A stretch of DNA of 64,000 nucleotides from Methanolobus sp. Its GTDB lineage: Archaea; Halobacteriota; Methanosarcinia; Methanosarcinales; Methanosarcinaceae. Below are positions 48,764 to 64,000 of this stretch, one piece after another. The position numbers were made by a program, and so were the translations under genes. The DNA is taken from positions 8,205 through 72,204 of the forward strand of contig JARVGJ010000004.1 in assembly GCA_029762595.1 (NCBI GenBank). The letters run 5' to 3'. The notes below the pieces were generated by a model, which saw only the letters and a list, made by a program, of their open reading frames with translations, searched no databases and was not told the origin of the DNA. Positions within the stretch are counted from its first letter, which is position 1; each line of letters begins with the position of its first letter.

Positions 48764-48812
48764 TGTTATCGATTAAGATACTACAAATTTGTATATATAG
48801 TTATAGAGAAAA

Positions 48813-50660: not shown

Positions 50661-50974
50661 GGATTCCATCAGGAAAATACAAGAGGAAGATTAAAAAAAG
50701 TAATAATGAGAAATGAAGAAGGGATATGAAAAAGCTTTCAAAAGAATAATTGCTTTCCTTGAAAATTCCCTGAATAATTAATTCATGCTCATTAAAAAAA
50801 AGCATATTTTTCAGACCATACCTATCTGGTTCAAGGAAGGATTTCTTTTTCTCAGCAATATCCATTGAAGATATGTATTTTGAATGACTTCCTTCTTGAT
50901 CATAATAAAAGTACTTTCAAGTATCTAATACATTGAGCCGATAATCAGGTTAAAATTCAATCGACAAGTAAATT

Positions 50975-52594
50975 TTATGATTTACCGTCCTTATTTTTTT
51001 TAGATGGCAGGGTTTCCCATTCCTTGATTCTTGAGAGAAGCTCTGTTGGCCTTTCAATCTTTATTTTGACCTTTCCTTCATATATATAACCGGTGTTGCC
51101 ATCAATACTGATAGTATCGCCTTCAAACAGCTGTTGATTATCAATAATGCATTTTCCAGCATCAATATCTATATTGATATCTGTGCAGTTGACAATGCAT
51201 ACCTTACCCATCTGACGGGCAACAACTGCTGCATGTGCAGTCCTTGCACCCTTTGCAGTCAGATAGCCGACAGATGCCCTGATTCCTTTAATATCCTCAG
51301 AAGATGGGCTGTTTCTTATGAGTATCACATGTCCGTCTTTTGAGAAAAGTTCTGCCTTAGCATTTGACAGAGCTATCCTTCCACATGTGATACCTGATGA
51401 TGCGGAATCGCCTCTGCCTATTATATTATTATTTGAGACTATTTCCTGAGTAACAATGTTGTTCAGATCTATAGTTTTAAGTCTTTCAAGAGCTGTTTCA
51501 GAATCGATAATTCCTTCGTCAAACATATCTGATGCTATTCTGAGGGCTGCAAATGGTGCTCTTTTGCCATCTCTGCTTTGCAGTATGTAAATTTTTCCCT
51601 GTTGAACTGTAAATTCTATGTCTTGCATATCCCGGTAGTGTGTCTCAAGTAATTTGCTTAGATAGACAAGGTCTTTGTGAATATCCGGCAAAACCTCGAT
51701 CAAATTCATTCTCTTTGTACCTGCCCGGTATCCTGAAACGAGGTCTTCTCCCTGGACACAGAACTTAAAATCTATAACACAGCTATTTTCTCCCGACCAC
51801 GGATTACGTGTGAAAAGGATACCTGACCCGGAATTCATATCGCTGTTACCAAATACCATAGTCTGTATTGTCACTGCTGTTCCCCGGGCCTTTTCATGAA
51901 ATTCCATCCTGCGGAATTCCTGTGCTTTAGGACTCATCCAGGAATCAAGCACTCCAATTACAGCCAGTTCGAGCTGTTCATAAACATTATCAGGAAATCT
52001 TTTTCCACTAATATCCAGGAATAAATCTTCATAATTCCTTATAAGTTCTTTTATGGAAAAAGAGTCAAGCTCACTTTCTTCGAAGATTCCTTCTTTCAAC
52101 TTTATGTCCTCAAGAAAAGAAAAATAATCATCAATATTATGAGAAAAAACAGTCTTTGCAAAACTTTCAAATAGCCTCCTGTAACAATCCCATGCAAACC
52201 GTGGGTTACCTGTCTGGAATATCAGACCTTTTAGAGTGTCCTGGTTCAGTCCAACATTAAGCACTGTTTCCATAGCACCCGGCATTGAGATTGCCGAACC
52301 GGATCTCACGGAAACAAGCAATGGTTTACGTTCGTTTCCAAAGATGTTTCCTGTTGCCTTTTCAAGAAAAGAGATACCGTTCTTTAGCAAATCAGGAACA
52401 TACGGAGGCATTTCCCTGGAGTTCCTGAAATAATCTACACATATAGAAATATTCAAAACAAAACCAGGAGGGACCGGTATACCCAAAGATGCCATCTCAG
52501 CAAGGTTAGATGCTTTCCTGCCAAATTCTTCTACTGGTGCATCTGTCCTGTATATGTGACCAAACGTGATCATTCTGCCAGTATCATCCGACAT
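50975..52594 (-). CDS. Truncated PPDK/PEP synthase-like dikinase: ATP-grasp nucleotide domain plus phosphohistidine swivel domain, no acceptor (TIM-barrel) domain
   Basis: GRKASNLAEMASLGIPVPPGF and VSVRSGSAISMPGAMETVLNVG (PPDK_N). Swivel motif GYLTAKGARTAHAAVVARQMGKVCIV with the catalytic His. The protein ends about 70 aa later. Start is taken at ATG 52594 (TAATG overlap with the upstream stop); the track uses GTG 52609. Confidence 0.8.
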   Translation of the reverse strand: MSDDTGRMITFGHIYRTDAPVEEFGRKASNLAEMASLGIPVPPGFVLNISICVDYFRNSREMPPYVPDLLKNGISFLEKATGNIFGNERKPLLVSVRSGSAISMPGAMETVLNVGLNQDTLKGLIFQTGNPRFAWDCYRRLFESFAKTVFSHNIDDYFSFLEDIKLKEGIFEESELDSFSIKELIRNYEDLFLDISGKRFPDNVYEQLELAVIGVLDSWMSPKAQEFRRMEFHEKARGTAVTIQTMVFGNSDMNSGSGILFTRNPWSGENSCVIDFKFCVQGEDLVSGYRAGTKRMNLIEVLPDIHKDLVYLSKLLETHYRDMQDIEFTVQQGKIYILQSRDGKRAPFAALRIASDMFDEGIIDSETALERLKTIDLNNIVTQEIVSNNNIIGRGDSASSGITCGRIALSNAKAELFSKDGHVILIRNSPSSEDIKGIRASVGYLTAKGARTAHAAVVARQMGKVCIVNCTDINIDIDAGKCIIDNQQLFEGDTISIDGNTGYIYEGKVKIKIERPTELLSRIKEWETLPSKKNKDGKS

Positions 52595-54531
52595 TATCTT
52601 GTACCCCACATATTGAGACTTTCAAAAACATTGTCCCTTATCGTAAAAGAGGCTTTCATTAATGAGTTTGTGGCCTCTTCCAGATTTGCAGCTATCTCTG
52701 TGGCAACATGGAACTCCCTGTAGTCTGCACTCTCTTTCAGAATTGTGATGTGTGCTTTTCGCAAAGCATCATCACACTTTTCTTCCATATCGAATATCAG
52801 ATTTACTGATTTCAGGAATAACTGCATTTCATCCTGAGTAAAACCATGGGTCACATACTGTGATGCATACAGAGCTTTCAGGAACTCCTGACTTCCCTTT
52901 AATGATAATTCAGCTATTGAGCTCAGGCACCTGAAAATATTCGGGGATTTTATAGTATCACATGCAACAGTTGTCATGAAAGCAGCTTCCTCAAAGTAGT
53001 CTACAACATCATCTGCAATCATTATCAGAGTTGAGAAAAATTCTGCAACCTCTATCCTGCCAGATAGAGATCTGACCCTATTTACAACATCATCGGCTTG
53101 TTTTTCCCATTTTTTAGCTCTTAATGCATTTCTTTTGACAAGGCCTTCATCTACTCCGTGCCTTATGTTCAAAAGAGTATCATTGACCGTGATTGCCATC
53201 TCCACCATTAAGGATGCGTGTTCAGAGCAGAGGTCCATAAGATCCTCATGTGCAGAATGGAAATAACGGAGAAGTTCGGCTTTTATCTCATCCTTTATGA
53301 ACAACTGACTCTGTTTTTCCAACAGGCCGGTAGCAGATCTGTCCAGGACAAATGTGAAAAAATCTATTGTCTTTTCACTTCCAATTATCTGGTACAATGG
53401 TTCACCATATCTCATTGGGACTCGGGATGCAACTTCCAATGAATCAAAAACAAGCTGTTTTCCACCAAGGACCAGAAAACCCCTGTGGCCTTTTTCATGG
53501 TCTGCAGCCCACTTGAGTAACTGGATACAATATCTGTTCCTCATGAAATTACGTAATTGCTTGCGTGCCCTGTTCCAGTCAATAAGAAAAACAATCCTTG
53601 ACCCAAGATATTCAAGGAAAAAACTCAATTTATCCGGGTCCTGAGCAGAATATTTTCCTGAGGAAAGATGATAAATATTATCCTCAAATCTGCTAACCCC
53701 ACTTTTAGATAAAGTATCATTCCATTCCACTCCGTATGAATCAAAGAGACTCTGGAAAAAAAGCACCCGGGACAAGTGGACATCAGTATAGGTTATTGAG
53801 ACCTCTTTTTCCTGAACATTTATTACCAGAACATGAGCATCTGTTTCTCCTATATCGTTTTGTATCATTAGTTTCTGACCACTGCGTGTAGCCGTTGTTC
53901 CCAGGCCAGGGTGACCGAACTTTAGAGGTGCAGTTCTATTCAATCCTTTCATGAAAGCTTTTACAAGGAACTTATCATTTTCAGTTAGCATGTATGTGTT
54001 TGCACCATCTATTATCTCTCCGGATATCGTTTCCTGTAATTTATTAAGGGATTTGTGTATGTCCATTACAAGTATATGCAGACTATCTCCGTGTTCCCGG
54101 TCTCCAGACGTAATCCTTGCTATGTCATCTTCCGAAATAACGTTTGAAACGGGTTCAGGAAGGAACGTGGAGAGTTCATAGAATCTATTGGTAAAAACCT
54201 CTTCTTCACCTTCACCTGAAATGGCAAAAGGAAGGATTATTTCTTCGATACAATTGCAAATTGAACCGATTATCCTACCTGATTGAGGAATCATAAAAGT
54301 ACCATTATGAAGTTTAGTAGAAGATGAAACAATATTATCCAGTTCAGCATCTTTTTCTCCGGTTGTGATCCTTTCGATACTCAGGTCAGGAAACTCCAGA
54401 TACGGATGCTCTGCTCTTGCCTTTGCGGTTTGAAGTAAGGTAAAGTAATATTTGACCCTGTCATTCGCAAGTAATGCAGCGTTGACGTGACTTGGCAGAA
54501 GCAGCTCATCTTCACCAAGCTCTTGTATCAT
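52594..54531 (-). CDS. Large hypothetical protein with a C-terminal DUF47/PhoU-like helical module
   Basis: 645 aa. The C-terminal third (ALRAKKWEKQADDVVNRVRSLSG...IADDVVDYFEEAAF...MEEKCDDALRKAH...EEATNSLMKA) follows the repeated E-x-x-x-D helical pattern of DUF47/PhoU. The N-terminal 400 aa were not recognised. Confidence 0.7.
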   Translation of the reverse strand: MIQELGEDELLLPSHVNAALLANDRVKYYFTLLQTAKARAEHPYLEFPDLSIERITTGEKDAELDNIVSSSTKLHNGTFMIPQSGRIIGSICNCIEEIILPFAISGEGEEEVFTNRFYELSTFLPEPVSNVISEDDIARITSGDREHGDSLHILVMDIHKSLNKLQETISGEIIDGANTYMLTENDKFLVKAFMKGLNRTAPLKFGHPGLGTTATRSGQKLMIQNDIGETDAHVLVINVQEKEVSITYTDVHLSRVLFFQSLFDSYGVEWNDTLSKSGVSRFEDNIYHLSSGKYSAQDPDKLSFFLEYLGSRIVFLIDWNRARKQLRNFMRNRYCIQLLKWAADHEKGHRGFLVLGGKQLVFDSLEVASRVPMRYGEPLYQIIGSEKTIDFFTFVLDRSATGLLEKQSQLFIKDEIKAELLRYFHSAHEDLMDLCSEHASLMVEMAITVNDTLLNIRHGVDEGLVKRNALRAKKWEKQADDVVNRVRSLSGRIEVAEFFSTLIMIADDVVDYFEEAAFMTTVACDTIKSPNIFRCLSSIAELSLKGSQEFLKALYASQYVTHGFTQDEMQLFLKSVNLIFDMEEKCDDALRKAHITILKESADYREFHVATEIAANLEEATNSLMKASFTIRDNVFESLNMWGTR

Positions 54532-54970
54532 TGATTTCTTGTTTATCGTTCTTGCTCCCCCATGCTTAAAGCACCCATTTCTAAAAATCCGTTAATTGAT
54601 GCAACTAAGCGATGTAATGAATTGTAAAAAACCGATCCTTGTTTGACATATAGGCTCTTTTACTGCCATTCGGATCTAAAATCGTTTCTAGAAAAGAACC
54701 TTCCCTGTTCATAAGACAATTTTGCCCCGAACTATAATTGATGTCCCCATTTAGACTTATATCTTAATAGAATATAGCTTTTGTCTATATAGAAAAGTAC
54801 CAGGATTCTCACTCATACGTAAATAAATCGGCCTACTTCGCATATCTGAAACCTATTGTATCGTGGTTTCAAAACACATGGTTTGTGAAAGATTAAAGAT
54901 ATTTATGCAAAAATATTTGACTATATACTTTTATACTTGCTTCACCCATTATTAATGAGAGGACTGGAAT

Positions 54971-55312
54971 ATGCCATGGGTCAATAAAAAGAAGTGTGTG
55001 TCGTGTAAGAAATGTGTAAAGAGATGTCCTGTGGATGCCATAGATATGGTAAAAGGTAAAGCTCTTATCACAGACGATAAATGTATCTACTGCGGAAAAT
55101 GTGTAAAGGTCTGTCCTGTTAAAGCCATACTTAAAGACAGGGATTTTGTGGAATTAAGAATCAGTGACAATCTTAAAGCATTAAAAGGTCCTCTTTCCAG
55201 GAACAAAGGCAAGAATGCAAGGAAAAGAATGATCAAAAGTCGTATCAGACAATTGAGGAATCAACAGAAGATCATTCGGGGAACCATACAGGAACTTAAA
55301 CAAATCAAATAA
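54971..55312 (+). CDS. 2x[4Fe-4S] ferredoxin-domain protein with a long Lys/Arg-rich C-terminal tail
   Basis: CVSCKKCVKRCP and CIYCGKCVKVCP motifs. The tail reads LSRNKGKNARKRMIKSRIRQLRNQQKIIRG. Confidence 0.8.
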   Translation: MPWVNKKKCVSCKKCVKRCPVDAIDMVKGKALITDDKCIYCGKCVKVCPVKAILKDRDFVELRISDNLKALKGPLSRNKGKNARKRMIKSRIRQLRNQQKIIRGTIQELKQIK

Positions 55313-55387
55313 AAGGTCACATCGGCCTGTACTTGCATCATTCATGACAAAATAGTCAGCAGGTGAGTTGCAGCCGGAGGAGAATCA

Positions 55388-57355
55388 GTGCCATCAGATA
55401 TTTTTTTGAGGAAATACTCGTTAATAGCATCTCTTAGCTTCCTTTTAGGCCTGGTATCATGCATGACAGGACTGCTGTTTGCCATGGTCAGCAGGCTCAG
55501 CCGCAGTTCTGATCCGGAGGTGATACTTGTTGTCTGCTCACTCCTTGGAGCCGGGATATTACTGATACTTGCCGGAATAAATATTGCAGGTATCCGCAGA
55601 AAACTTTCCGGGAACTATTCATTCATAGCAGCTCTGGTACTATCGGCCCTAGGACTAACTGTATTTACATTCTCCTTCCCAGGGAACTGGTTCTATCCAA
55701 GGGTATCATATGTGATAGTTTCATATTCATTGGGCATTTTCCTGCTATTGATAAATATATTTGTCAATTATTTCCTGTATACATCCAAAACCTCTTCGGG
55801 AAGGACAATTGATCCACATGAAAGTTTCACATGTACAGGTGCCAGCGACTCCACAAATGTGCCCGGGCAACATAACGATTGTTCAGTGCTTGCAACGTTT
55901 GCAGGCATATTGGTGACAAATATAACATCAATAGCATCAGCTTCATATGAACCATATTTTGTGGACAATGACAGTGATGAAAATGATATGTTTGTTGTTA
56001 TGGAAAATGAACCTGCACAAAGCAGGTTGCAGTCAGGAAATATGACCGATAATGGGAAGATCAAGGATCAGAATGATAAAATCGACGAAGGTATGGAAGA
56101 AAACATGGAAAACAGTACGGATAAAAACATAGACGAAACAGCAAATGAAAAAGAGGCTAGCAATGATGGGTACACCGAACCCACGGCTCTGGAGACCACA
56201 CAGTTTCCGGAAGTAGTGGACGTTGCGGTAACAGAAATAGACACACATTATGAAGAAAATGTCACTGAAGAGTGTGGTCTGTCACCGGAGTTAAAGGAAT
56301 ATGAAGACCTGACTACCTCTAAAACCGCAATACCTGTACCGTTCTCTGAGTTCAGAACAATGAAAAAGACCGATATCAGAGCAGACGATACAATGCGTGC
56401 TGCTGCACGTAAGATACTTATGTTCCATTTCGGGGCAATGATCGAGCATGAAAGGGGTACCAAAGTTGGCAAGGACATCGAAGAACTCCATGACATGCGG
56501 GTTGCTGCAATGCGGATGCGCTCAGCTGTAGAGGTACTGGAAGGCTATCTTGATATGGATGAGATGTCACCATATCGCAAGAACATCAAATCCGTAAGAA
56601 AGGTACTTGGTTCCGTGCGTGACCTTGATGTTTTCCTGGAGAAGATCGACCATTACCTTGCAGACCAGCCACCTGAAAGGAGGGCGCAGATGGACCCTCT
56701 GACAGATTCCATTTTAATAGAAAAGGCAAAGAACCGTGGTACTATGCTTGTGTACCTTGATGACTCAAAGTACAATAAATTCAAAAAGAACTTTGCTGAC
56801 TACCTCTTACATAAGAAGTCCTGGAAAATGCGGTCCGTTAAAAAGAATGGTGAGCCCGTCCCATACAAGGTAATGGATGTACTGCCAGTGCTTCTGTACA
56901 CGCAGTTTGCAGCTGTAAGAGCTTATGACAATGTGGTATCTGATGAGGCAATCGATGACCCCTCCCTTGAAAAGTATCATCAGTTGAGGATAGATGTTAA
57001 AATTTTGCGTTATACACTTGAATTCTTCCGTGAGGTACTTGGACCGGAATCAAAAGAACTCATAAAATATTTGAAAGCTTTACAGGACAATCTTGGGGAC
57101 ATGCATGATACAGTAGTTGCACTGGAGCTGCTTAAGAAATTTGAAGAACGTGGCAGCTGGGGTGAAAGCAGGAAAGAAGGAAAAAACATGTCCGGTGAAC
57201 TGCAAAAATATCCGGGTGTTGATGCTTATATTGAGTACAGGAAACAGGAACTTGAAAGCCTTCTTGAAACATTCCCTGATGTGTGGTCCAATGTAATTGA
57301 CCCGGATTTCAGCGTCAGTTTCTCAAAGGCCATATCAGGAATTTACACGTCCTGA
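55388..57355 (+). CDS. Membrane-anchored CHAD-domain protein (4 N-terminal TM helices, acidic linker, C-terminal CHAD)
   Basis: Hydrophobic N-terminal 130 aa. The D/E/N-rich linker reads DNDSDENDMF...EGMEENMENSTDKNIDETANEKE. CHAD motifs are LHDMRVAAMRMRSAVEV and YHQLRIDVKILRYTLEFF. GTG start. Confidence 0.85.
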   Translation: MPSDIFLRKYSLIASLSFLLGLVSCMTGLLFAMVSRLSRSSDPEVILVVCSLLGAGILLILAGINIAGIRRKLSGNYSFIAALVLSALGLTVFTFSFPGNWFYPRVSYVIVSYSLGIFLLLINIFVNYFLYTSKTSSGRTIDPHESFTCTGASDSTNVPGQHNDCSVLATFAGILVTNITSIASASYEPYFVDNDSDENDMFVVMENEPAQSRLQSGNMTDNGKIKDQNDKIDEGMEENMENSTDKNIDETANEKEASNDGYTEPTALETTQFPEVVDVAVTEIDTHYEENVTEECGLSPELKEYEDLTTSKTAIPVPFSEFRTMKKTDIRADDTMRAAARKILMFHFGAMIEHERGTKVGKDIEELHDMRVAAMRMRSAVEVLEGYLDMDEMSPYRKNIKSVRKVLGSVRDLDVFLEKIDHYLADQPPERRAQMDPLTDSILIEKAKNRGTMLVYLDDSKYNKFKKNFADYLLHKKSWKMRSVKKNGEPVPYKVMDVLPVLLYTQFAAVRAYDNVVSDEAIDDPSLEKYHQLRIDVKILRYTLEFFREVLGPESKELIKYLKALQDNLGDMHDTVVALELLKKFEERGSWGESRKEGKNMSGELQKYPGVDAYIEYRKQELESLLETFPDVWSNVIDPDFSVSFSKAISGIYTS

Positions 57356-57510
57356 AAGAGCCTTTAAAATTGTATCGATCATATGAGACTATGTTGCACT
57401 ATATATGACTATATATGAATCTATATGAAGTGTTATATAATAGGATAGCCTTACTTTTATCAAGATACGATACCATTTTGACGTTTTTTAGACTGAGGAA
57501 CATGAACTTT

Positions 57511-59583
57511 ATGTCAGGTGAAGTAAAAGATTACATTAACAGGGAGATAAGCTGGCTTTCATTCAATGAAAGGGTGCTTCAGGAAGCAAAGGATCCGGAA
57601 GTCCCTTTGCTTGAGCGTCTGAAGTTCCTTGGGATCTTCTCCTCAAACCTCGACGAATTCTTCAGCGTAAGGGTTGGAACACTGCAGCGCATGATAGATG
57701 CAGGAGTGAAGTCCAATGCCATGGTTGGTGTTTCTCCTAAAAGGGTCATGAAACAGGTGCATGATATCGTACTGCAACTACGTGATGATTTCGACAGGGT
57801 ATTTGTTGAACTAACAAAGGAACTGGAACAACATAATATTTTCATAGTAGATGAAACTCAGCTGGATGAAGTCCAGAAGTCCTTTGTTGAAGATTATTTC
57901 CATGAAAAAGTAAGACCACGCCTTATACCGGTAATGCTTAAAGACATTAACCATTTCCCTTACCTTAAGAACCAGGTCATTTATCTGGTAGTGGATGTCA
58001 GGAAAAAATGGGACCCACATGGTTCCAAATTTGCCCTTATAGAAGTTCCTGCAGACGTACTCCCCCGCTTTATCATGCTTCCTGACTCAGGAGACAGGAA
58101 ATGTGTCATAATGCTGGATGATGTTATACGCTTTGGACTTGATGATATATTCTCAACCTTTAAATATGATTCCATAGGTGCATATACTATCAAGCTTACA
58201 AGGGATGCGGAGCTGGAAATAGACGACGATGTAACAAGAAGTTTCTTTGAGAAGGTATCCGAGAGCCTGGAAGAAAGAAAAAAAGGACAACCAGTACGTT
58301 TTGTCTATGACAGGGAAATGCCCTACTACCTTCTTGATTTTACGCTTAAAGGATTGAAGATCCAGAAATTTGAAAACCTGGTCCCTGGTGGTAAATATCA
58401 TAATGCAAAAGATTTCATGGGCTTTCCACAGATATGGCCTGATGCATTCTATTATCAAAAAAAGGATCCTTTGCCCCATAAAGACCTGATCCGTCATAAG
58501 AGCATATTAGCTGCAATAAGGGAAAGGGACATCCTCCTCCATTATCCATACCAGTCGTTTGATTATTTCATAGACCTTTTAAGGGAGGCTGCAATTGACC
58601 CATATGTTTCAAGCATAAAAATCACCCTTTACAGAGTCGCCCGCAATTCCAATGTCATAAACGCGCTGATCAATGCAATAAAGAACGGGAAAAAGGTCAC
58701 GGTTGTTATTGAGCTTCAAGCAAGGTTTGATGAGGAATCCAATATTTACTGGACCCAGAAACTTGAGGAAGAAGGTGCAAGGATCATCGACGGTGTACCG
58801 GGTTTGAAAGTACACTCTAAATTGTGCCATATCACAAGGATAGAGGAAAATGTCCCTGTTCATTATTCTTGTATCGGGACCGGCAATTTCAACGAATCCA
58901 CTGCCACATTATATTGTGATCACATGTTAATGACAACTGATATGCAAATAACCTATGAGGTAGAGAAGGTTTTTGATTTCTTTGAGCATAATTATAAAAC
59001 CTATGGATATGAGCATCTTCTTGTTGCCCCCCTTTATATGAGAAATGCGTTTGAAGGATTCATCGACAATGAGATCGCAAATGCAAAGGCAGGATATCCT
59101 GCCTACATTCATGCAAAGATGAACAGTCTTGTGGACAGGGATATGATCAATAAGCTTTATGAGGCAAGTAAAGCAGGTGTGAGTATCAAATTGGTCATCA
59201 GAGGGATCTGTTCACTTGTTCCCGGTGTTGCAGGTCAGAGTGAAAAAATAGAGGTCATCAGTATAGTTGACAAATATCTTGAACATTCACGTATTTTTAT
59301 ATTCTGCAACAATGGTGAGGAAAGATATTTCATCTCATCGGCCGACTGGATGGTCAGGAACCTTGACAGGCGTGTGGAAGTTGCAGTGCCTTTGTATGAT
59401 CCTGCTCTTCAAAAGGAGCTGAAAGAATACATGAACTTGCAGTTCACAGATAATACCAAGGCCCGGATAATCAATGAGCTCCAGGATAACAGATACAGGA
59501 AAAGTGGAGACATCCCTTGTCGTGCCCAGGAAGACATATATCATTTCCTTGAACGTAAATTGAAAAACGAGGACACACAATGA
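57511..59583 (+). CDS. ppk: Polyphosphate kinase 1
   Basis: YINREISWLSFNERVLQEA N-terminal signature and two PLD-like HKD regions (VHSKLCHI...). The ATG at 57511 is about 10 nt after TGAGGAA; the track ORF begins at 57415. Confidence 0.9.
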   Translation: MSGEVKDYINREISWLSFNERVLQEAKDPEVPLLERLKFLGIFSSNLDEFFSVRVGTLQRMIDAGVKSNAMVGVSPKRVMKQVHDIVLQLRDDFDRVFVELTKELEQHNIFIVDETQLDEVQKSFVEDYFHEKVRPRLIPVMLKDINHFPYLKNQVIYLVVDVRKKWDPHGSKFALIEVPADVLPRFIMLPDSGDRKCVIMLDDVIRFGLDDIFSTFKYDSIGAYTIKLTRDAELEIDDDVTRSFFEKVSESLEERKKGQPVRFVYDREMPYYLLDFTLKGLKIQKFENLVPGGKYHNAKDFMGFPQIWPDAFYYQKKDPLPHKDLIRHKSILAAIRERDILLHYPYQSFDYFIDLLREAAIDPYVSSIKITLYRVARNSNVINALINAIKNGKKVTVVIELQARFDEESNIYWTQKLEEEGARIIDGVPGLKVHSKLCHITRIEENVPVHYSCIGTGNFNESTATLYCDHMLMTTDMQITYEVEKVFDFFEHNYKTYGYEHLLVAPLYMRNAFEGFIDNEIANAKAGYPAYIHAKMNSLVDRDMINKLYEASKAGVSIKLVIRGICSLVPGVAGQSEKIEVISIVDKYLEHSRIFIFCNNGEERYFISSADWMVRNLDRRVEVAVPLYDPALQKELKEYMNLQFTDNTKARIINELQDNRYRKSGDIPCRAQEDIYHFLERKLKNEDTQ

Positions 59584-60470
59584 GATTTGCTGCCATAGAT
59601 GTTGGCTCCAATGCGGTTCGTCTGCTCCTTTCAAAGGTTGATTCTGAAGGAATAGAGCCCATATATGAAAAGATATCTTTTATACGCATGCCTATCCGCC
59701 TTGGTGAGGATGCATTCGTCCATAATAATATCTCGCAGGAAAAGATATCCCGTCTTGTGGATACAATGACAGGGTTCAGATACCTTATGGATGCCTATGA
59801 ACCCATAGACTACATGGCATGTGCAACTTCAGCTATGAGGGAAGCTGATAACAGAGATATGATCATTTCCATGGTAAAGGAAAGAAGCGGCATTGATCTT
59901 AAAGTTATCAGCGGCAGGAAAGAAGCAAAAATTATCTATTCAAACCGTATAGAAAAGTTACTGGGAAGCAGTGACTCCATCTATCTTCATATTGATGTTG
60001 GTGGTGGCAGTACGGAACTTATACTTTTTAAGGGAAAGGAAGTTTTTGCGTACAGATCTTTCAATATCGGAACTATCCGTATGCTGGAAGGCATTGTGAC
60101 AAAAGATGACTGGAAAGAGATGAAAGAATGGGTAAAAAGTGTGACCCGTAAGCACATGCCGGATTATGCTATTGGAAGTGGCGGAAATATAAGCAAACTC
60201 TTTAGGATGGCCGGTAAAAAAGATGGTACACTCATAAATGACACCGATATCAAAGACCTGAATACATATCTTAAGGGCTTCACATTAGAACAGCGCATAG
60301 CAAAGCTGGGCCTGCGTCCTGACAGGGCAGATGTGATAGTTCCCGCTTCCAGGATATATTACTCTGTTATGAAATGGGGCAATATCAATACTATGCATGT
60401 CCCGCAACTTGGTCTTGCAGATGGGATCATACATGTCCTGTACAACAAACATAAAAAAGATTATATATAA
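59580..60470 (+). CDS. ppx: Exopolyphosphatase, short form (Ppx/GppA N-terminal ASKHA domains I-II only)
   Basis: MRFAAIDVGSNAVRLLL and HIDVGGGSTEL motifs. 296 aa, with an ATGA overlap with ppk. Confidence 0.9.
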   Translation: MRFAAIDVGSNAVRLLLSKVDSEGIEPIYEKISFIRMPIRLGEDAFVHNNISQEKISRLVDTMTGFRYLMDAYEPIDYMACATSAMREADNRDMIISMVKERSGIDLKVISGRKEAKIIYSNRIEKLLGSSDSIYLHIDVGGGSTELILFKGKEVFAYRSFNIGTIRMLEGIVTKDDWKEMKEWVKSVTRKHMPDYAIGSGGNISKLFRMAGKKDGTLINDTDIKDLNTYLKGFTLEQRIAKLGLRPDRADVIVPASRIYYSVMKWGNINTMHVPQLGLADGIIHVLYNKHKKDYI

Positions 60471-60707
60471 ACAATGTTAATGAATGTTGCATTGCTTGTC
60501 CACAGGATAAAATTTGAATTGTACGTTTGTAACATGCTTTTTTTAATTTAATTGTCTTCCAGGTTTGCTAACCTATAGCCATAAATGAGAATCCTATGTT
60601 CATAATATATAAATACTGATTTGCCAGACAACTCTTCATAGAATATATTCCAGTCCACGTTTGCCGGAATTCCCGGCAGACCTGAATAAAAACCAATAGT
60701 TGATCTT

Positions 60708-61736
60708 ATGGATTATCCTGGCAGTAGAAACGGTTGCCTGTATCTTGGAATAGATGCGGGCATGTTCAAAACATCTGTTTGCACCAGTGAAGGAAAGAGA
60801 TTCTCTGAGCGAAGTGTTGTAATTCTCCATGAAAACAGTGCTGACTCTGATGGAAGAATATTATCCGGAACACAAGCCCTGGAAGCGACAGATGGGAACG
60901 TAAAAGAAGCCCTGAAAAACGGGTTAAAAGATGAGGATGATGTTCTTATTTTCAAGGAGTACCTTACAGATTTACTTGAAAAACATGATATTGAAGTTAA
61001 AAACAGAAATATATATGCAATACTTGGCGTTCCATCTACTGCAAACATGGAATACAAAAAAAATCTTCTTTCCCTTGCAATGGAACTGTTCTCCGGTGCA
61101 ATGCTGGTTGATGAGCTTTTTTGTATAGCCTATAAAAAAGATATTCTTGAAACATCAATGATACTGGATCTTGGGTTCAGCAAAACAGACATTGCCATAA
61201 TAAACGGTGGTATCCCACAGGAAAATGATTTTCATTGTCTTTCGTGTTCCGGAAAAGATATTGACAGTGAAATAGTCAAGCTCATAAAAGAAAGATGGTA
61301 CGACTCAATAGTAACAGAAGAGCTTGCAAGGGAATGGAAAGAGGAATACGGACACCTTGTTTCTGCTCCCGGAGCATGTACTGTCAATATTCCCCTTGAA
61401 AGCGGGACTGTAAATGAATCAATAGATGAAGAGATACAGATAGCATGTGAGTTTGTTGTCACAGATATCGTTTCAGGTATTACCCGGCTCCTGTCGGAGG
61501 TAGAAACGGAAATAAGGGAATCATTAAGGAATAATATCCATATCTTTGGCGGCACCAGTCGCCTGCTCAATATTGGCACCTTTATAGAGAATGAGCTAAA
61601 AGAGCTGGGAGGAGCCAGAGTTTCCCTTGATATTGACCCGGTTTTTGGTGTTGCTGAAGGTGCACTGGAGTTATGCAGGAATATGCCGGCGGAATTCTGG
61701 GAACAAATCATTGCTCAAAACAGAATCAGGATCTGA
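60708..61736 (+). CDS. Actin-fold (ASKHA) ATPase resembling MreB/MamK/ParM-type cytomotive proteins
   Basis: Phosphate-1 LYLGIDAGMFKTSV, phosphate-2 MILDLGFSKTDIAII, adenosine motif IHIFGGTSRL, connect-2 DPVFGVAEGAL. 342 aa. Confidence 0.7.
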   Translation: MDYPGSRNGCLYLGIDAGMFKTSVCTSEGKRFSERSVVILHENSADSDGRILSGTQALEATDGNVKEALKNGLKDEDDVLIFKEYLTDLLEKHDIEVKNRNIYAILGVPSTANMEYKKNLLSLAMELFSGAMLVDELFCIAYKKDILETSMILDLGFSKTDIAIINGGIPQENDFHCLSCSGKDIDSEIVKLIKERWYDSIVTEELAREWKEEYGHLVSAPGACTVNIPLESGTVNESIDEEIQIACEFVVTDIVSGITRLLSEVETEIRESLRNNIHIFGGTSRLLNIGTFIENELKELGGARVSLDIDPVFGVAEGALELCRNMPAEFWEQIIAQNRIRI

Positions 61737-61740
61737 TAAT

Positions 61741-63204
61741 ATGAATTCATTGAACTTCTCAGGCGACTATAAAAAAGATGAAAAAACACCTAAGCTCTTT
61801 ACTCCTAATATTTACAGAAAACCTATCACATCAAATGAACATGAAAAGGAAGGAAAAAGAACCGCATCTCATTCTGGCCCACATAACTATGTTCCAGAGA
61901 ATGCTGGGGAACCTTGCGATGATGAAAAGGAGACAATTTACAGGATTCCGGCATCTGATATAGATGAGCTTGTACAGAAAGAGGCATTACTTTCTGAAAT
62001 AAAGAAACGTTATGAATCAGAGATAAGTGAATATGAAGAAAAGCAAAAAGAGATCAGTGAACTGAAAAACAAATTCGCCCAGCAGGAGAAAGAGCTTCGG
62101 GAGAAATGTGCCATCCTCAAGGCTGCAACTGAAAAAACAAAAAAGTCCATACCCAGGGAGCAGACAGAGAAACTTGAAAAAGAGATATCTGCATTTGAAG
62201 AGAGACGCCTTGAATATGAAAAGCGCTTAAAGGAGTTTGAAGCATCCAGAAGCGAATATGAAAAAGAGCTTTCGAATCATAAAATACGTATGGAGGAACT
62301 TGAACAGAAGAAAGCGGCATATGAGAACGATCTTGAACAGCATACAAAGAAGAGATCAGAGCTGGATGAAAAACGCAGATCATTGGAGGAAATGATAAGC
62401 TCCGGTGAACAATTCACCATAGAACTGAATGATATAAGCTATCCGGCAGTTATCGAGGAAATAAAGTCCGGTTACTATGAACAATTGCAGGCCCTGAACC
62501 GAAAGCGAGCAGACATTGAAACCCTAAAGTCTGAATTAGAGGATGAGGAGGAATTCCTTGCACAAAAGCGCTTTTCAATTGAAAAAGCAAAAGAGAATAT
62601 CCATAAGGAACTCCTTGAACTTGGACCAAAGACCGTTGAGCTTGATGCAGCAATTGTCATTTATGAAGAAAGTGTAAAGAACCATCAGGAAAAAGAGCTT
62701 GCTTTTGAGGAAAAGATAAAGGCCTTTGAAAAGAAGAAAATCGAACTCAATGCTGAGGCTGAGAATCTTGAGCTGCAGCATCTTCAGACCTTAAAGTCGC
62801 ATGAAGAAAAAGAAATGGTTTTGCAGCAACGTATGAAAGATCTGGAGCAGAAGAAAGCTGAACTTGAAGGTGAAGAGGAAAATATCCGTTCAAGGCGGGA
62901 AGATAATTCAAGAAAGGAAGAGGATATCAAGCAATCACTTTCAGAAATGGAAGCCAGAAGAAGTGAGCTTGAAAGGATGATCGGGAAGACAAATGAGGAA
63001 ATAGGTGTGCATGTGACCATCCACCGCCAGCATCTTGATATCAAAAAACTTAACAACAAGCTGGAACAACAGCTTATTTATATACAGAGCCTTGAAAGTT
63101 CAGTGGCAGATCTTAAACGCAGCCTCGAAGAAGCAAAGTGTGATGTTAAAAAGAATGAGGTATTCTCACAGATCCTCAAGCAGAATATTGAGCTTATAGG
63201 ATGA
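61741..63204 (+). CDS. 487-aa coiled-coil protein (E/K-rich, SMC/arcadin-like in composition only)
   Basis: The ATG at 61741 lies 4 nt after the actin-like gene stop. After an 80-aa basic, low-complexity N-terminus, the rest is continuous heptad-like E/K/L sequence. The track ORF start (61627) lies inside the upstream gene. Confidence 0.75.
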   Translation: MNSLNFSGDYKKDEKTPKLFTPNIYRKPITSNEHEKEGKRTASHSGPHNYVPENAGEPCDDEKETIYRIPASDIDELVQKEALLSEIKKRYESEISEYEEKQKEISELKNKFAQQEKELREKCAILKAATEKTKKSIPREQTEKLEKEISAFEERRLEYEKRLKEFEASRSEYEKELSNHKIRMEELEQKKAAYENDLEQHTKKRSELDEKRRSLEEMISSGEQFTIELNDISYPAVIEEIKSGYYEQLQALNRKRADIETLKSELEDEEEFLAQKRFSIEKAKENIHKELLELGPKTVELDAAIVIYEESVKNHQEKELAFEEKIKAFEKKKIELNAEAENLELQHLQTLKSHEEKEMVLQQRMKDLEQKKAELEGEEENIRSRREDNSRKEEDIKQSLSEMEARRSELERMIGKTNEEIGVHVTIHRQHLDIKKLNNKLEQQLIYIQSLESSVADLKRSLEEAKCDVKKNEVFSQILKQNIELIG

Positions 63205-63429
63205 TTTGTGATTGGGTACATATTGGGTACAAACTAACAAAAAATACAAAGAAATCCGTTAGATAATGAAGAAAAACAAGCAAATCGGACAAACTATCAG
63301 ATAGATCAAGTTAAAATGTGTGCCTCAGAACTCATAGGGTTCATCATGTATCAGATTGTATTTTGTCATCATCGGCACACATATAAATTTTAATACAAGA
63401 GCAGAAGATAATAGTGAACTATAAAATGT

Positions 63430-64000
63430 TCATAACACTTCTTTGATCTCATCAACTATTTTTCTTGCTGCTGCTCCAGGCTCATCTGACTGGTAGATAC
63501 TCCTTCCAACGATAACCCAGTCTGCTCCGGCTTTTATCACGTCCGAAGCGCTGCCTCCCTGGGCACCAACACCAGGTGATATTATGGAGAGATCATTGCC
63601 TATTATCTTTCTTATCTCTGCAACCCTCCCAGGCCGGGTGGCAGGTGCGACCACACCGGAGGCTTTTGCCCCTGCTGCCATCTTTGCGATACCTTCCCCA
63701 GCCTGTTGCATGAAATCAAGAGCTCCAGGATGGCTCATCTCGGTTACAACATAGATGTCTTTTTCCTTCTCTTTTGCAAGTCTCACAGCTGCTTCCAGGC
63801 TGTCATGTCCTGTGAACCCCTGGACGATAACAGCATCTGCTCCTGCCTTGAACACCTGTTCACATATAAGGCGGTTCGTATTTGGAATATCAGCTACCTT
63901 GAAATCCGCAATTATGGGAGCATATTTCGATAGCTCTCCGATGATATTCATTCCTGTTGCAAGGACAAGAGGATAACCTATCTTGATGGCATCCACGTAT
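63430..64000 (-). CDS. pyrF: Orotidine 5-prime-phosphate decarboxylase; N-terminus lies beyond the window edge
   Basis: [11 protein letters not shown] (K-x-D-I-x-x-T) and [11 protein letters not shown] motifs. The frame is still open at position 64000. Confidence 0.85.

What the first reader, a model, noticed from the sequence alone, without database searches (positions are those of the whole stretch)
60708..63204. Actin-fold ATPase plus long coiled-coil partner directly downstream of ppk1-ppx: a candidate filament system
The 342-aa protein shows all five actin/ASKHA signature segments: LGIDAGMFKTS, the connect-1 region, ILDLGFSKTDIAII, IHIFGGTSRL and DPVFGVAEGAL. Its size is that of MreB/MamK/ParM-type polymerising proteins rather than of kinases or Hsp70. 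Its stop is 4 nt from the start of a 487-aa protein that is continuous coiled coil after a basic N-terminal region. This recalls actin-partner pairs such as crenactin-arcadin or MamK-MamJ. Methanosarcinales are not known for MreB-type cytoskeletons. The position at the end of the polyP island, co-directional with ppk-ppx, suggests a positioning or segregation apparatus for polyP granules, or otherwise a new archaeal cytomotive pair.
Basis: partly seen in the sequence, partly recalled or inferred. Interest (0 to 1): 0.65.

Follow-up and report, generated by a model that had tools for sequence, protein, structure and literature searches.

The report
Archaeal MamK-like actin with coiled-coil tether
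A methanogen (Methanolobus) carries a fast-evolving relative of the bacterial filament protein MamK next to a long rod-shaped partner; the same undescribed gene pair occurs across related methane-cycling archaea, and its proposed role in moving polyphosphate granules rests only on gene position within one genus.

Summary
Both genes are real. They are under purifying selection and have their own promoter, which is conserved across the genus.

- **The actin.** The 342-aa protein belongs to the MamK lineage of polymerising actins. The MamK HMM gives 205 bits (next best is BeeR at 90, MreB at 40). Foldseek's top hits are MamK filament structures. It falls below NCBI's MamK cut-off of 400 bits.
- **Its origin.** It is the divergent Methanolobus branch of a large MamK-like family in ANME-2 and Ca. 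Methanoperedens. I found no paper describing that family.
- **The partner.** In those archaea the actin gene is also followed directly by a partner gene. All these partners share a ~70-aa C-terminal domain with the window's 487-aa protein. Their coiled-coil length ranges from about 200 to 1,940 aa. Most carry an ArlD/E-like N-terminal domain. Methanolobus has an invariant FTPNIYRKP peptide instead.
- **Best reading.** A cytomotive filament plus a dimeric tether: the C-terminal domain binds the filament and the N-terminus binds a cargo.
- **The polyphosphate link is weak.** Adjacency to ppk1-ppx holds in all 15 Methanolobus-type loci, but the whole region is syntenic there. A T-run and a separate promoter lie between ppx and the actin gene. 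No related archaeal or bacterial locus sits near polyP genes. Methanomethylovorans has the polyP island without the pair.

The parts
60538..60544 (+). Run of seven T, 68 nt after the ppx stop codon. It looks like an archaeal oligo-T terminator for the ppk1-ppx unit.
   Evidence: Sequence read. T79-T82 of the alignment are invariant or nearly so in 12 Methanolobus loci. Its function as a terminator is inferred.
60578..60622 (+). Conserved promoter-like block GCCAT...TATGTTCATAATATATAAATACTGATTT, containing a TATA-box-like element about 90 nt upstream of the actin ATG.
   Evidence: The core 27 nt are invariant in 11 of 12 Methanolobus loci, while the flanking sequence averages 61% identity. The block is still conserved in R15, ZRKC2 and L081, where the proteins are only 42-45% identical. 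It is unique in the 64-kb window. Its promoter function is inferred.
60708..61736 (+). Gene for the MamK-lineage actin-like ATPase (342 aa).
   Evidence: NCBIfam MamK 205.5 bits, E 1e-60, full length. PDB MamK E 1.6e-37. AlphaFold2 pLDDT 85.7, pTM 0.84. Foldseek top hits are MamK 5ljw/5ljv, E 1.7e-30 to 2.9e-29, TM up to 0.84-0.88. dN/dS 0.10-0.16.
60744..60776 (+). Phosphate-1 loop LGIDAGMFKTS (D16, G18). It is a GMFK variant of the usual G-T-S-x-T.
   Evidence: Aligned to MamK GVDLGTSHTAV. D16 and G18 are invariant in alignment A1. Deep-branching Methanolobus keep the canonical DLGTS.
61101..61121 (+). Segment MLVDELF containing E136, the equivalent of MamK catalytic E143.
   Evidence: Alignment. 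This column is Gly in P0008, P0016 and P0020, and Asp in P0019.
61161..61202 (+). Phosphate-2 loop ILDLGFSKTDIAII (D154, G156).
   Evidence: Aligned to MamK IIVDIGAGTTDICAL. D154 and G156 are invariant, while positions 157-159 vary.
61536..61565 (+). Adenosine-binding motif IHIFGGTSRL (G281, G282).
   Evidence: Aligned to MamK IVFAGGGSRI. G281 and G282 are invariant.
61635..61709 (+). Connect-2 helix DPVFGVAEGAL and the MamK-family C-terminal NMPxEFWxQ tail.
   Evidence: M326, P327, F330 and W331 are invariant in A1, including the planctomycete relatives. MamK has ELPPQYWRQL at this position.
61741..63204 (+). Gene for the partner (487 aa): a disordered N-terminus, a helical rod, and a conserved C-terminal domain.
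   Evidence: 4 nt after the actin stop codon. An orthologue follows the actin gene in all 15 Methanolobus-type loci. dN/dS 0.14-0.23. AlphaFold2: aa 1-70 disordered, helices at 71-136, 139-220 and 235-486.
61798..61824 (+). Invariant short linear motif FTPNIYRKP (aa 20-28) inside the disordered N-terminus. Proposed cargo- or anchor-docking peptide.
   Evidence: Invariant in the 12 aligned orthologues, in R15 and ZRKC2 at 34-38% overall identity, and in A4 except the first two residues. Minor variants are FIPNIYRKP in L081 and FSPNIYRKP in P0268. Its function is inferred.
62398..62526 (+). Break in the rod (aa 220-235), followed by the conserved segment IKSGYYEQLQALNRKRADIETL (aa 241-262).
   Evidence: pLDDT below 50 at aa 223-233. 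The motif is conserved in all orthologues.
62983..63201 (+). C-terminal domain (aa 415-487): ...IG.HVTIHRQ.LDIKKLN.KLEQQ.IYIQSLE...KKNEVFSQILKQN.EL. Proposed filament-binding element.
   Evidence: It is the most conserved part of the protein. Profiles containing it (the full-length partner profile, then a C-terminal-domain profile) hit the C-termini of partners next to MamK-like genes in Methanoperedens (E 7e-10 and 2e-9), in the 206-aa L091 protein (6e-13), in the 1,940-aa L092 protein (8e-13), and in L012. Its function is inferred.
54971..60470 (+). Context only: fdx (54971-55312), TM-CHAD (55388-57355), ppk1 (57415-59583) and ppx (59580-60470). This is the polyphosphate island upstream of the pair.
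   Evidence: Pfam and NCBIfam results. The gene order is conserved in Methanolobus.

Best explanation
The two genes form a self-contained module with its own promoter. It encodes a nucleotide-dependent, filament-forming actin of the MamK lineage and a dedicated rod-shaped tether.

Proposed mechanism:
1. The actin polymerises as MamK does.
2. The partner dimerises through its long helices.
3. The partner's conserved C-terminal ~70 residues hold it on the filament.
4. Its N-terminal end docks on whatever is being positioned. In ANME-2 and Methanoperedens this end is an ArlD/E-like domain. In Methanolobus it is a disordered arm carrying the invariant peptide FTPNIYRKP.

The Methanolobus version is a fast-evolving offshoot of this archaeal system. 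It changed its N-terminal docking module and sits at the edge of the polyphosphate island. Its cargo is not established. PolyP granules are the one concrete candidate (about 1 in 5).

Shown here: the family placement, the conserved gene pairing, the shared C-terminal domain, purifying selection, and the conserved separate promoter-like block (that it acts as a promoter is inferred).

Inferred: polymerisation, which end of the partner binds what, and the cargo.
For: Family placement.
- The MamK HMM is by far the best match: 205.5 bits, against BeeR 89.6, salactin 47.8 and MreB 40.3.
- The AlphaFold2 model (pLDDT 85.7) is closest to MamK filament and monomer structures (E 1.7e-30 to 2.9e-29, TM up to 0.84-0.88). 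BeeR, MreB and actin follow. All are polymerising proteins.
- MamK HMM scores fall in steps: planctomycete 406, Methanoperedens 395-401, ANME-2 370, M. psychrophilus R15 260, window 205.
- BLAST means place Methanolobus nearer the archaeal clade (35-40% identity) than the bacterial clade (29-34%) or MamK itself (28-31%).

Pairing.
- The partner gene follows the actin gene in 15 of 15 Methanolobus-type loci.
- A protein ending in the same C-terminal domain follows the actin gene in L012, L082, L084, L091 and L092. The gaps are 0-40 nt, and the genomic contexts differ from one another.
- Partner length runs from 196 to 1,940 aa with the C-terminal domain always at the extreme end. That fits a spacer or tether.

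Bacterial parallel.
- 56 of 68 MamK-like loci, mostly Planctomycetota, have a conserved ~260-aa coiled-coil gene directly upstream.
- Its last ~25 residues resemble the archaeal C-terminal domain. hhalign gives P 0.0014. 44 of the top 46 non-training hits among 7,311 ORFs are these proteins.
- A planctomycete-related MamK-like protein, saltatorellin, forms filaments in E. coli and Magnetospirillum (bioRxiv 10.1101/817700).
- MamK working with coiled-coil proteins has a precedent in Desulfovibrio magneticus RS-1 (PMC12748827).

The genes are functional and separately controlled.
- dN/dS is 0.10-0.16 for the actin and 0.14-0.23 for the partner.
- A 45-nt promoter-like block is conserved across the whole genus, with a T-run before it.
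Against: - No polymerisation, binding or localisation data exist for any member of the archaeal family.
- The window protein scores only half of NCBI's MamK cut-off.
- Both phosphate loops are non-canonical (GMFK and GFSK). The catalytic Glu is Gly or Asp in 4 of the 20 Methanolobus-type sequences in the alignment. Nucleotide turnover may therefore be slow or altered.
- MamK position 278, where the A278D mutation blocks polymerisation, is Glu here. Relatives also carry polar residues there: Asp in P0024 and His in P0022 and P0023. The saltatorellin sequence was not examined, so this position says little either way.
- The roles assigned to the C-terminal domain (filament) and N-terminus (cargo) rest on conservation patterns and analogy only. 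The reverse assignment, or a bundling or regulatory role, is possible.
- The similarity to the bacterial partner is weak (hhalign probability 17%).
- The NJ tree has no outgroup and no support values. The Methanolobus clade sits on a long branch.
Confidence: 0.65

Rival explanations
1. One reading: the pair is a positioning or segregation apparatus for polyphosphate granules. The filament moves or spaces granules. The tether's N-terminal FTPNIYRKP arm docks on a granule-surface protein such as the membrane-anchored CHAD protein or PPK1.
For: - The pair lies immediately after ppk1-ppx, on the same strand, in all 15 Methanolobus-type loci. This includes M. psychrophilus R15, where the fdx-CHAD part of the island has been replaced but ppk1-ppx-actin-partner stayed together.
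- In Methanolobus, three changes go together: the new genomic position, the ArlD/E-like domain replaced by a new invariant peptide, and accelerated evolution of both proteins. That pattern fits a change of cargo.
- No ATP-driven positioning system for polyP granules is known (review PMC13052382), so the niche is open.
Against: - The linkage arose once. Within Methanolobus the entire region from CYTH to deoxyhypusine synthase is syntenic, so adjacency carries little independent weight.
- A T-run and a separate, strongly conserved promoter separate the pair from ppx.
- The homologous pairs in ANME-2 and Methanoperedens (7 loci) and 68 bacterial loci have no ppk1, ppx or CHAD nearby.
- Methanomethylovorans has the full CYTH-PPK2-fdx-CHAD-ppk1-ppx island without the pair. 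Methanohalobium likewise lacks it.
- The N-terminal arm is not strongly basic, so direct binding to polyP is not suggested.
Confidence: 0.2
2. The pair is a general cytoskeletal element of Methanosarcinales, for example organising the cell envelope, the division site, the nucleoid, or the archaellum and chemosensory machinery. Its place beside the polyP genes in Methanolobus is an accident of insertion between ppx and pyrF.
For: - The module sits in unrelated genomic contexts in every other lineage examined.
- Most non-Methanolobus partners carry a Pfam Arch_fla_DE domain, a domain of archaellum motor proteins ArlD/E.
- Chemotaxis genes (MCP-CheW-CheR) flank the island in R15 and ZRKC2.
- The pair has its own promoter.
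Against: - Methanolobus has lost the ArlD/E-like domain.
- No specific structure can be named.
- Methanolobus cells are irregular cocci (my own knowledge, not tested here), so a rod-shape role is unlikely.
- I did not examine how the module's presence relates to archaellum genes.
Confidence: 0.4
3. The protein is a decaying or non-polymerising actin-fold ATPase (chaperone- or kinase-like), and the downstream gene is an unrelated SMC-like coiled-coil protein.
For: - The phosphate loops are non-canonical, and the catalytic Glu is replaced in 4 orthologues.
- The partner gives weak SMC, JetC and ASRP hits.
- The protein is far below the MamK cut-off.
Against: - At the thresholds used, no Hsp70, sugar-kinase or EutJ family matched the window protein, and all top structural matches are filament formers.
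- Both genes show clear purifying selection.
- The SMC-type hits cover only coiled-coil segments at 12-36 bits, far below their cut-offs. The partner has no ATPase head.
- The pairing and the shared C-terminal domain span deep divergence.
Confidence: 0.07
4. A ParM/Alp-type DNA segregation system (actin, adaptor and centromere) that has become resident on the chromosome.
For: It is a two-gene actin-plus-partner operon with an unusually conserved upstream DNA block.
Against: - There are no iterated centromere-like repeats upstream.
- The partner has no recognisable DNA-binding fold and is a 487-aa rod rather than a small RHH or HTH adaptor.
- The position is chromosomal and syntenic in all genomes.
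- No ParM or Alp family appeared among the matches; MamK was far the best.
Confidence: 0.03

Closest known systems
MamK (with MamJ/MamY) of Magnetospirillum, the magnetosome-positioning actin
   Same: It is the best sequence and structure match. The protein has the same size, the same C-terminal PxxFW tail, and a catalytic Glu at the equivalent position. It works with an adaptor protein encoded next to it.
   Different: - Only 27-29% identity, and half the family cut-off score.
- No magnetosome genes nearby, and the host is an archaeon.
- The partner is a coiled-coil rod with its own conserved C-terminal domain, not an acidic repetitive MamJ.
- The phosphate loops are altered.
MamK-like actins of Methanosarcinales (ANME-2, Ca. 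Methanoperedens). Database entries only; no publication found.
   Same: They are the closest relatives (35-40% identity). The operon layout is the same, with the actin gene followed by a partner ending in the same C-terminal domain.
   Different: - Those actins keep canonical DxGTS and DIGAGTTD loops and reach about 370-400 bits on the MamK HMM.
- Their partners usually start with an ArlD/E-like domain.
- They are never near polyP genes.
Saltatorellin, a planctomycete-type MamK-like actin (bioRxiv 10.1101/817700)
   Same: It belongs to the same MamK lineage, is found outside magnetotactic bacteria, and has been shown to form filaments in heterologous hosts. In my loci the family has a conserved coiled-coil neighbour whose C-terminal motif resembles the archaeal one.
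   Different: It is bacterial. The partner gene lies upstream and is about 260 aa. Homology between the partners is only suggestive.
MamK/Mad28 plus coiled-coil Mad20/23/25/26 network of Desulfovibrio magneticus RS-1 (PMC12748827)
   Same: Actin-like proteins act together with coiled-coil proteins to organise an intracellular inclusion.
   Different: I detected and tested no sequence relationship to the Mad proteins. That system is specific to magnetosomes.
ParM-ParR-parC and Alp7A-Alp7R
   Same: A two-gene actin-plus-adaptor module.
   Different: There are no centromere repeats, no DNA-binding adaptor, and the module is not on a mobile element.
Crenactin-arcadin and salactin/volactin (archaeal actins)
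   Same: Archaeal actin-fold proteins, some with neighbouring partner genes.
   Different: These are different actin lineages: salactin HMM 47.8 bits and Pfam Actin 34.7 bits, against MamK 205. No arcadin-like genes were seen.
AlgP / nucleoid tethering of polyP granules (Pseudomonas; PMC9239181, PMC13052382)
   Same: It would serve the same purpose if the polyP reading were true.
   Different: AlgP is a histone-like DNA binder. No cytoskeletal or ATP-driven component is known for polyP granules.

Membership tests
MamK family (NCBIfam NF040964) | Full-length match to the family HMM at or above the curated cut-off (400 bits) | tested here: not met
   205.5 bits, E 1e-60, profile positions 1-331 of 335. 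It is the best family by a wide margin but below the cut-off. Relatives score 260 (R15), 370 (L012), 395-401 (Methanoperedens) and 406 (planctomycete).
MamK family | Fold closest to MamK among actin-superfamily structures | tested here: met
   Foldseek against PDB: MamK 5ljw/5ljv E 1.7e-30 to 2.9e-29, TM up to 0.84-0.88; BeeR 2.5e-23; MreB about 1e-18; actin about 1e-17. The model has pLDDT 85.7.
MamK family | Intact nucleotide-binding and hydrolysis residues (phosphate-1 Asp, catalytic Glu143, phosphate-2 Asp161, adenosine GG) | tested here: met
   D16, E136, D154, G156 and G281-G282 align to the MamK residues. However, the loops are GMFK and GFSK variants, and E136 is Gly or Asp in 4 orthologues.
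MamK family | Encoded within a magnetosome gene cluster and acting on magnetosomes | tested here: not met
   The neighbours are ferredoxin, CHAD, PPK1, PPX and pyrF. No Pfam hit to Mam proteins appears among the flanking genes.
MamK family | ATP-dependent polymerisation into double-stranded filaments | not testable with these tools
   This needs protein biochemistry or imaging. Only a single-chain prediction was available.
MreB (the databases' own name for Methanolobus orthologues: 'rod shape-determining protein') | Match to MreB HMMs above the cut-off | tested here: not met
   TIGR00904 gives 31.8 bits (cut-off 365.75) and PRK13927 gives 40.3 bits (cut-off 293). The Pfam MreB_Mbl domain match (53 bits) is generic to bacterial actins.
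MreB | Linkage to mreC/mreD or cell-wall elongation genes | tested here: not met
   None is present among the neighbours in the window or in 15 related loci.
ParM/Alp segregation systems | Adaptor with a DNA-binding fold, plus a centromere of repeated sites upstream | tested here: not met
   No iterons in 60300-63500. The partner is a disordered arm plus helical rod with no DNA-binding Pfam domain.
Non-polymerising ASKHA families (Hsp70/DnaK, EutJ, sugar kinases, Ppx/GppA) | Better match to those families than to filament-forming actins | tested here: not met
   No such family is listed for the window protein at E <= 0.01 in Pfam or NCBIfam. The top 50 Foldseek matches are all MamK, BeeR, MreB, actin or Arp.
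Salactin / BeeR / crenactin | Match to the family HMM above the cut-off | tested here: not met
   Salactin 47.8 bits (cut-off 400), BeeR 89.6 bits (cut-off 530), Pfam Actin 34.7 bits covering only aa 50-196.
Archaeal MamK-like actin plus CTD-partner module (defined here) | Partner gene directly downstream, ending in the conserved ~70-aa C-terminal domain | tested here: met
   The window partner's C-terminal domain matches those of L082, L084, L091, L092 and L012 with E from 2e-9 to 6e-13. The adjacency gaps are 0-40 nt.
Archaeal MamK-like actin plus CTD-partner module (defined here) | N-terminal ArlD/E-like (Pfam Arch_fla_DE) domain in the partner | tested here: not met
   Pfam finds none in the window partner. 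A local profile of the domain gives E >= 0.35 on all Methanolobus partners. The 206-aa L091 partner also lacks it, so this domain is optional in the family.

The most novel reading that the evidence does not exclude
The Methanolobus pair is the first cytoskeleton-based, nucleotide-driven system for positioning or partitioning polyphosphate granules. A MamK-lineage filament would have been re-targeted from its ancestral cargo to polyP granules by exchanging the tether's ArlD/E-like head for the FTPNIYRKP docking peptide. More broadly, MamK-type actins with C-terminal-domain-bearing tethers of adjustable length would be an ancient, general organelle-positioning toolkit shared by Methanosarcinales and Planctomycetota.
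Probability: 0.18. Interest if true: 0.85.

Novelty: new variant of a known kind. Interest (0 to 1): 0.6.

Why it matters
Archaeal cytoskeletons are known from only a few systems: crenactin, salactin/volactin, Asgard actins, and MreB in some methanogens.

Here a MamK-lineage actin has a dedicated partner of a previously undescribed type. The partner combines a conserved C-terminal domain, a rod of 200 to 1,940 aa, and exchangeable N-terminal heads. The pair appears throughout environmentally important methane-cycling archaea (ANME-2, Methanoperedens, Methanolobus), and possibly in Planctomycetota. I found no publication on it.

This gives experimentalists three things:
- a defined two-protein system to test for filament formation;
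- two candidate interaction elements (the C-terminal domain and the FTPNIYRKP peptide);
- a natural experiment in cargo switching.

If the Methanolobus version does act on polyphosphate granules, it would answer an open question raised in a recent review (PMC13052382): whether polyP granule positioning uses energy-consuming machinery.

It also corrects the automatic annotation 'rod shape-determining protein MreB' carried by these archaeal proteins.

Tried and rejected
1. **Transcript evidence.** Only DNA metagenome runs hold this sequence (one mud metagenome at 100% of sampled words), and no RNA runs exist. Co-transcription could not be tested.
2. **Conserved RNA structure in the 5' leader.** RNAalifold found none (-0.41 kcal/mol). 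A hand-specified inverted repeat is 87% paired with modest covariation, and 4 of 500 shuffles reach its score. I recorded it as a minor observation only.
3. **Regulon search with the invariant promoter block.** It is unique in the window. It occurs only upstream of the actin gene in the loci. It has a single exact match in metagenome contigs, on a contig whose length equals that of the contig carrying an actin orthologue. I learned nothing about co-regulated genes.
4. **Homology of the archaeal C-terminal domain with the bacterial upstream partner.** hhalign probability is only 17% (P 0.0014). The enrichment test is striking, but the bacterial proteins are one family, so it counts as one observation. 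I kept it as 'suggestive'.
5. **phmmer of the C-terminal domain against 1.84 billion representatives.** This gave only 10 hits, mostly Methanolobus-type. A single sequence is too weak to define the family's breadth.
6. **Defence-system models (PADLOC).** Nothing for the actin, and only coiled-coil noise for the partner.
7. **Centromere-like repeats.** None found. The ParMRC reading was rejected.
8. **SMC/ASRP hits of the partner.** These were rejected as coiled-coil composition matches (12-36 bits, against cut-offs of 300-729).
9. **MamK A278 position as a polymerisation indicator.** I rejected it because relatives also carry polar residues there.
10. **NJ tree.** It separates three groups but cannot root them. 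I used HMM-score and BLAST-score gradients instead.

Full report
**1. The observation**

The window has a 342-aa ORF at 60708-61736 (+). Four nucleotides after its stop codon, an ATG opens a 487-aa ORF at 61741-63204. Upstream on the same strand lie:
- a ferredoxin (54971-55312)
- a protein with a transmembrane N-terminus and a CHAD domain (55388-57355)
- ppk1 (57415-59583)
- ppx (59580-60470)

Their positions are, and the alignment pairs the query with MamK continuously through these regions. E136 corresponds to the MamK catalytic Glu143, and D154 to D161. The match is far beyond chance: NCBIfam MamK E 1e-60 over the full length and PDB MamK E 1.6e-37.

Four details need correcting:
- The partner's N-terminus is hardly basic, at +3 over 40 residues and -1 over 70.
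- The rod has a break at aa 221-234.
- The actin gene is separated from ppx by 237 nt.
- The polyP island is larger than described. It also contains a CYTH-HD protein, a two-domain PPK2 and an MgtC/DUF4010 protein.

**2. What kind of actin-fold protein it is**

- *HMM scores.* Among curated family models MamK is far ahead at 205.5 bits. BeeR scores 89.6, salactin 47.8 and MreB 40.3. The MamK score is still half of NCBI's cut-off of 400.
- *Structure.* An AlphaFold2 model built on 23 homologues is confident (pLDDT 85.7, pTM 0.84). Foldseek against the PDB ranks MamK first (5ljw/5ljv, E 1.7e-30 to 2.9e-29, TM up to 0.84-0.88). BeeR follows at 2.5e-23, MreB at about 1e-18 and eukaryotic actin at about 1e-17.
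- *No non-polymerising family.* No Hsp70, EutJ or sugar-kinase family appears for the window protein at the thresholds used.
- *Database name.* The name 'rod shape-determining protein MreB' carried by the Methanolobus orthologues is a generic mis-annotation.

**3. Where it comes from**

Close homologues (52-88% identity) are confined to Methanolobus. The nearest genome is Methanolobus sp. WCC5 at 88%.

A Methanosarcinales MAG (L012) carries a 35%-identical protein. Using it as a query revealed a MamK-like family whose best 120 hits (46-95% identity) mostly carry no source name. Every hit that is named comes from ANME-2, Ca. Methanoperedens or an 'uncultured archaeon'. NCBI names one of them 'MamK family actin-like protein'.

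MamK-HMM scores fall stepwise:

| Protein | MamK HMM bits |
|---|---|
| Planctomycete (L013) | 406 |
| Ca. Methanoperedens | 395-401 |
| ANME-2-type (L012) | 370 |
| M. psychrophilus R15 | 260 |
| Window | 205 |
| P0020 | 150 |

BLAST means place the Methanolobus proteins nearer the archaeal clade (35-40% identity) than the bacterial clade (29-34%) or MamK proper (28-31%). An NJ tree shows three groups, with Methanolobus on a long branch. It has no outgroup and no support values, so I use it only descriptively.

I conclude that the window protein is a fast-evolving Methanolobus offshoot of an archaeal MamK-like family.
- Deep-branching Methanolobus (R15, ZRKC2) still have canonical DLGTS and DxGASK loops.
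- The window clade has GMFK and GFSK.
- Four of its 20 members in the alignment replace the catalytic Glu by Gly or Asp.
- Both genes are nevertheless under purifying selection: dN/dS is 0.10-0.16 for the actin and 0.14-0.23 for the partner, against 0.04-0.10 for ppk1 and ppx.

**4. The partner**

Alignment of 12 orthologues, and later R15 and ZRKC2, shows four conserved features set in a variable helical rod of 447-604 aa:
- an invariant FTPNIYRKP peptide at aa 20-28, inside a region AlphaFold2 predicts as disordered (aa 1-70)
- a break in the rod at aa 221-234
- a conserved IKSGYY..L..LNRKRADI segment
- a highly conserved C-terminal ~70 residues

The C-terminal domain (CTD) is the link to the wider family.

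| Locus | Protein directly downstream of the actin gene | CTD match |
|---|---|---|
| L082, L084 (Ca. Methanoperedens genome, and a related assembly) | 196-203 aa; Pfam Arch_fla_DE (ArlD/E) N-terminal domain | C-terminal ~60 residues hit the window-partner profile at E 2e-9 and 7e-10 |
| L012 | ArlD/E-like domain, a ~600-aa coil and the CTD fused in one 755-aa protein | matches the partner profile |
| L092 | 1,940 aa | CTD at the extreme end, E 8e-13 |
| L091 | 206-aa coil plus CTD, no ArlD/E domain | E 6e-13 |
| L090 | 384 aa | Only a weak C-terminal motif |
| L083 | ArlD/E protein followed by a separate 636-aa coiled-coil gene | No CTD detected |

The conserved unit is therefore: actin gene, then a partner with an optional N-terminal head, a rod of very variable length, and the CTD. 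Methanolobus replaced the ArlD/E-like head with the FTPNIYRKP arm. A local profile of the ArlD/E-like domain gives no signal on any Methanolobus partner (E >= 0.35).

**5. A bacterial parallel**

Of 68 bacterial MamK-like loci, mostly Planctomycetota, 56 have a conserved coiled-coil gene of about 260 aa directly upstream of the actin gene. Its most conserved part is again the C-terminal ~75 residues, ending KKKELMAxIFxANLxLQK. The archaeal partners end KKNEVFSQILKQNIEL.
- Profile-profile comparison is only suggestive (P 0.0014, probability 17%).
- When the archaeal CTD profile is run against all 7,311 six-frame ORFs of the loci, 44 of the top 46 non-training hits are these bacterial partners, each matched through its last ~25 residues.
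- These proteins form one family, so this counts as one weak but well-placed match.

A planctomycete-related MamK-like protein, saltatorellin, forms filaments in E. coli and Magnetospirillum (bioRxiv 10.1101/817700). Its published reverse primer encodes ...YWEQLK, similar to the C-terminal EFWEQ.K / EFWEKLK tails of the planctomycete-type relatives found here. In Desulfovibrio magneticus RS-1, MamK and Mad28 work with coiled-coil Mad proteins (PMC12748827).

**6. The link to polyphosphate**

*For the link.* The order ppk1-ppx-actin-partner-pyrF holds in the window and in L001-L011, L085 (R15) and L086 (ZRKC2). L081 keeps a partial ppx followed by actin-partner-pyrF. That makes 15 of 15 Methanolobus-type loci. 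In R15 the fdx-CHAD part has been replaced by MCP-CheW-CheR, yet ppk1-ppx-actin-partner stayed together.

*Against the link.*
- The whole region from CYTH to deoxyhypusine synthase is syntenic in the genus, so adjacency is not independent evidence.
- After ppx comes a 7-T run. It is followed by a 45-nt block (60578-60622) containing a TATA-like element. The block's core is invariant in 11 of 12 loci and is conserved even in R15, ZRKC2 and L081, where the proteins are about 42-45% identical. The pair therefore very probably has its own, tightly conserved promoter.
- None of the seven other archaeal loci and none of the 68 bacterial loci has ppk1, ppx or CHAD within the fetched flanks.
- Methanomethylovorans has CYTH-PPK2-fdx-CHAD-ppk1-ppx followed by an unrelated secreted protein. 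Methanohalobium has ppk1-ppx without the pair.

The linkage is thus one evolutionary event. One point does fit re-targeting to a new cargo: the move next to the polyP island coincides with the exchange of the partner's N-terminal head and with accelerated evolution. I put the polyP-granule reading at about 0.2.

**7. Mechanism I commit to**

A MamK-type filament plus a dimeric rod-shaped tether. The CTD is the only element shared by all partners, so it most likely contacts the actin. The exchangeable N-terminal head most likely contacts the cargo or anchor. The rod sets the distance.

- Shown: family placement, pairing, the shared CTD, selection, and the conserved separate promoter-like block.
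- Inferred: polymerisation, which end binds what, and the cargo.

No parC-like repeats and no DNA-binding fold support a ParMRC-like reading. The SMC and JetC hits of the partner are coiled-coil noise.

**8. Literature and novelty**

Full-text searches found no paper combining MamK with Methanolobus or with Methanoperedens. The five papers combining MamK with Methanosarcin*/archaea and the one with ANME do not, from their titles, abstracts and the passages I read, describe such a family.

A 2025 review lists only nucleoid tethering (AlgP) for polyP granules and asks whether energy is used (PMC13052382).

I therefore rate this a new variant of a known kind: a MamK-lineage actin with a new type of partner, in archaea. 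The specific polyP claim remains an open, testable minority reading.

Noticed in passing
window 50100-54970: A stretch of about 4.8 kb is absent from the 11 other Methanolobus loci, where the MgtC-like gene is followed directly by the ferredoxin gene. It carries a DUF498 protein (50298-50660, +). It also carries a 544-aa protein with PPDK_N and PEP-utilizers mobile domains but no C-terminal catalytic domain (50975-52609, -). Overlapping that gene is a 645-aa protein with no Pfam or PADLOC match (52594-54531, -).
   Followed up: partly
window 46014-60470: The polyphosphate island is larger than the finding states. It runs CYTH-HD (46014-47264), two-domain PPK2 (47261-48763, -), MgtC/DUF4010 (48813-50108, -), ferredoxin, TM-CHAD, PPK1, PPX. 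The same island, without the actin pair, is present in a Methanomethylovorans contig (L087).
   Followed up: partly
window 55388-57355: The CHAD protein is membrane-anchored. Its N-terminal multi-pass region weakly resembles DUF7139/CdpA_N (21 bits, below the cut-off). An acidic low-complexity linker joins it to the CHAD domain. This suggests membrane-tethered polyP granules.
   Followed up: no
window 60578-60622: A promoter-like block is more conserved than the coding sequences it precedes. It shows at most 2 changes in about 30 nt across the genus, including species whose proteins are only 42-45% identical. That suggests a conserved regulator binding at or over the TATA region. It is unique in the window, and only one exact match exists in metagenome contigs.
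   Followed up: partly
window 60655-60690 (5' leader of the actin gene): An inverted repeat lies in the leader: GCCGGAATTCCCGGC in the window and GGATCCCATG...CATGTGGGTC in most other species. It is 87% paired across 12 species with modest covariation. RNAalifold does not call it.
   Followed up: partly
L013-L080 (bacterial loci), directly upstream of the MamK-like gene: 56 of 68 mostly planctomycete loci encode a conserved ~260-aa coiled-coil protein just upstream of the MamK-like (saltatorellin-type) actin. It has no informative Pfam domain. Its C-terminal KKKELMAxIFxANLxLQK motif resembles the archaeal partner's C-terminus.
   Followed up: partly
L092 7103-12925; L083 1321-5255: In one ANME-2-type contig the partner is a 1,940-aa giant: an ArlD/E-like head, about 1,700 aa of coil, and the C-terminal domain. 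In an ANME-2 cluster genome the head (173 aa) and a 636-aa coil are separate genes, and no C-terminal domain was detected.
   Followed up: partly
alignment A1, column of window residue E136: The catalytic glutamate (MamK E143 equivalent) is Gly in three Methanolobus-type orthologues (P0008, P0016, P0020) and Asp in one (P0019). This hints at slow or lost hydrolysis in part of the clade.
   Followed up: no
L085 1659-5636; L086 1-462: In M. psychrophilus R15 an MCP-CheW-CheR cluster lies directly upstream of ppk1, where the other genomes have fdx-CHAD. ZRKC2 has CheR upstream of the CYTH gene. This is curious, because the related partners carry an archaellum ArlD/E-like domain.
   Followed up: no
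window 31694-32078: An archaeal RNase P RNA (Rfam RF00373, 156.6 bits). ARAGORN finds no tRNA genes in the 64-kb window.
   Followed up: no
window 62013-62324: Internal direct repeats lie within the partner's first coil (about 32 nt, 72-75% identity, encoding SE[IY]xE[YF]E-type segments). Orthologues differ by whole-segment insertions and deletions (447-604 aa). The rod length therefore evolves by repeat gain and loss.
   Followed up: partly
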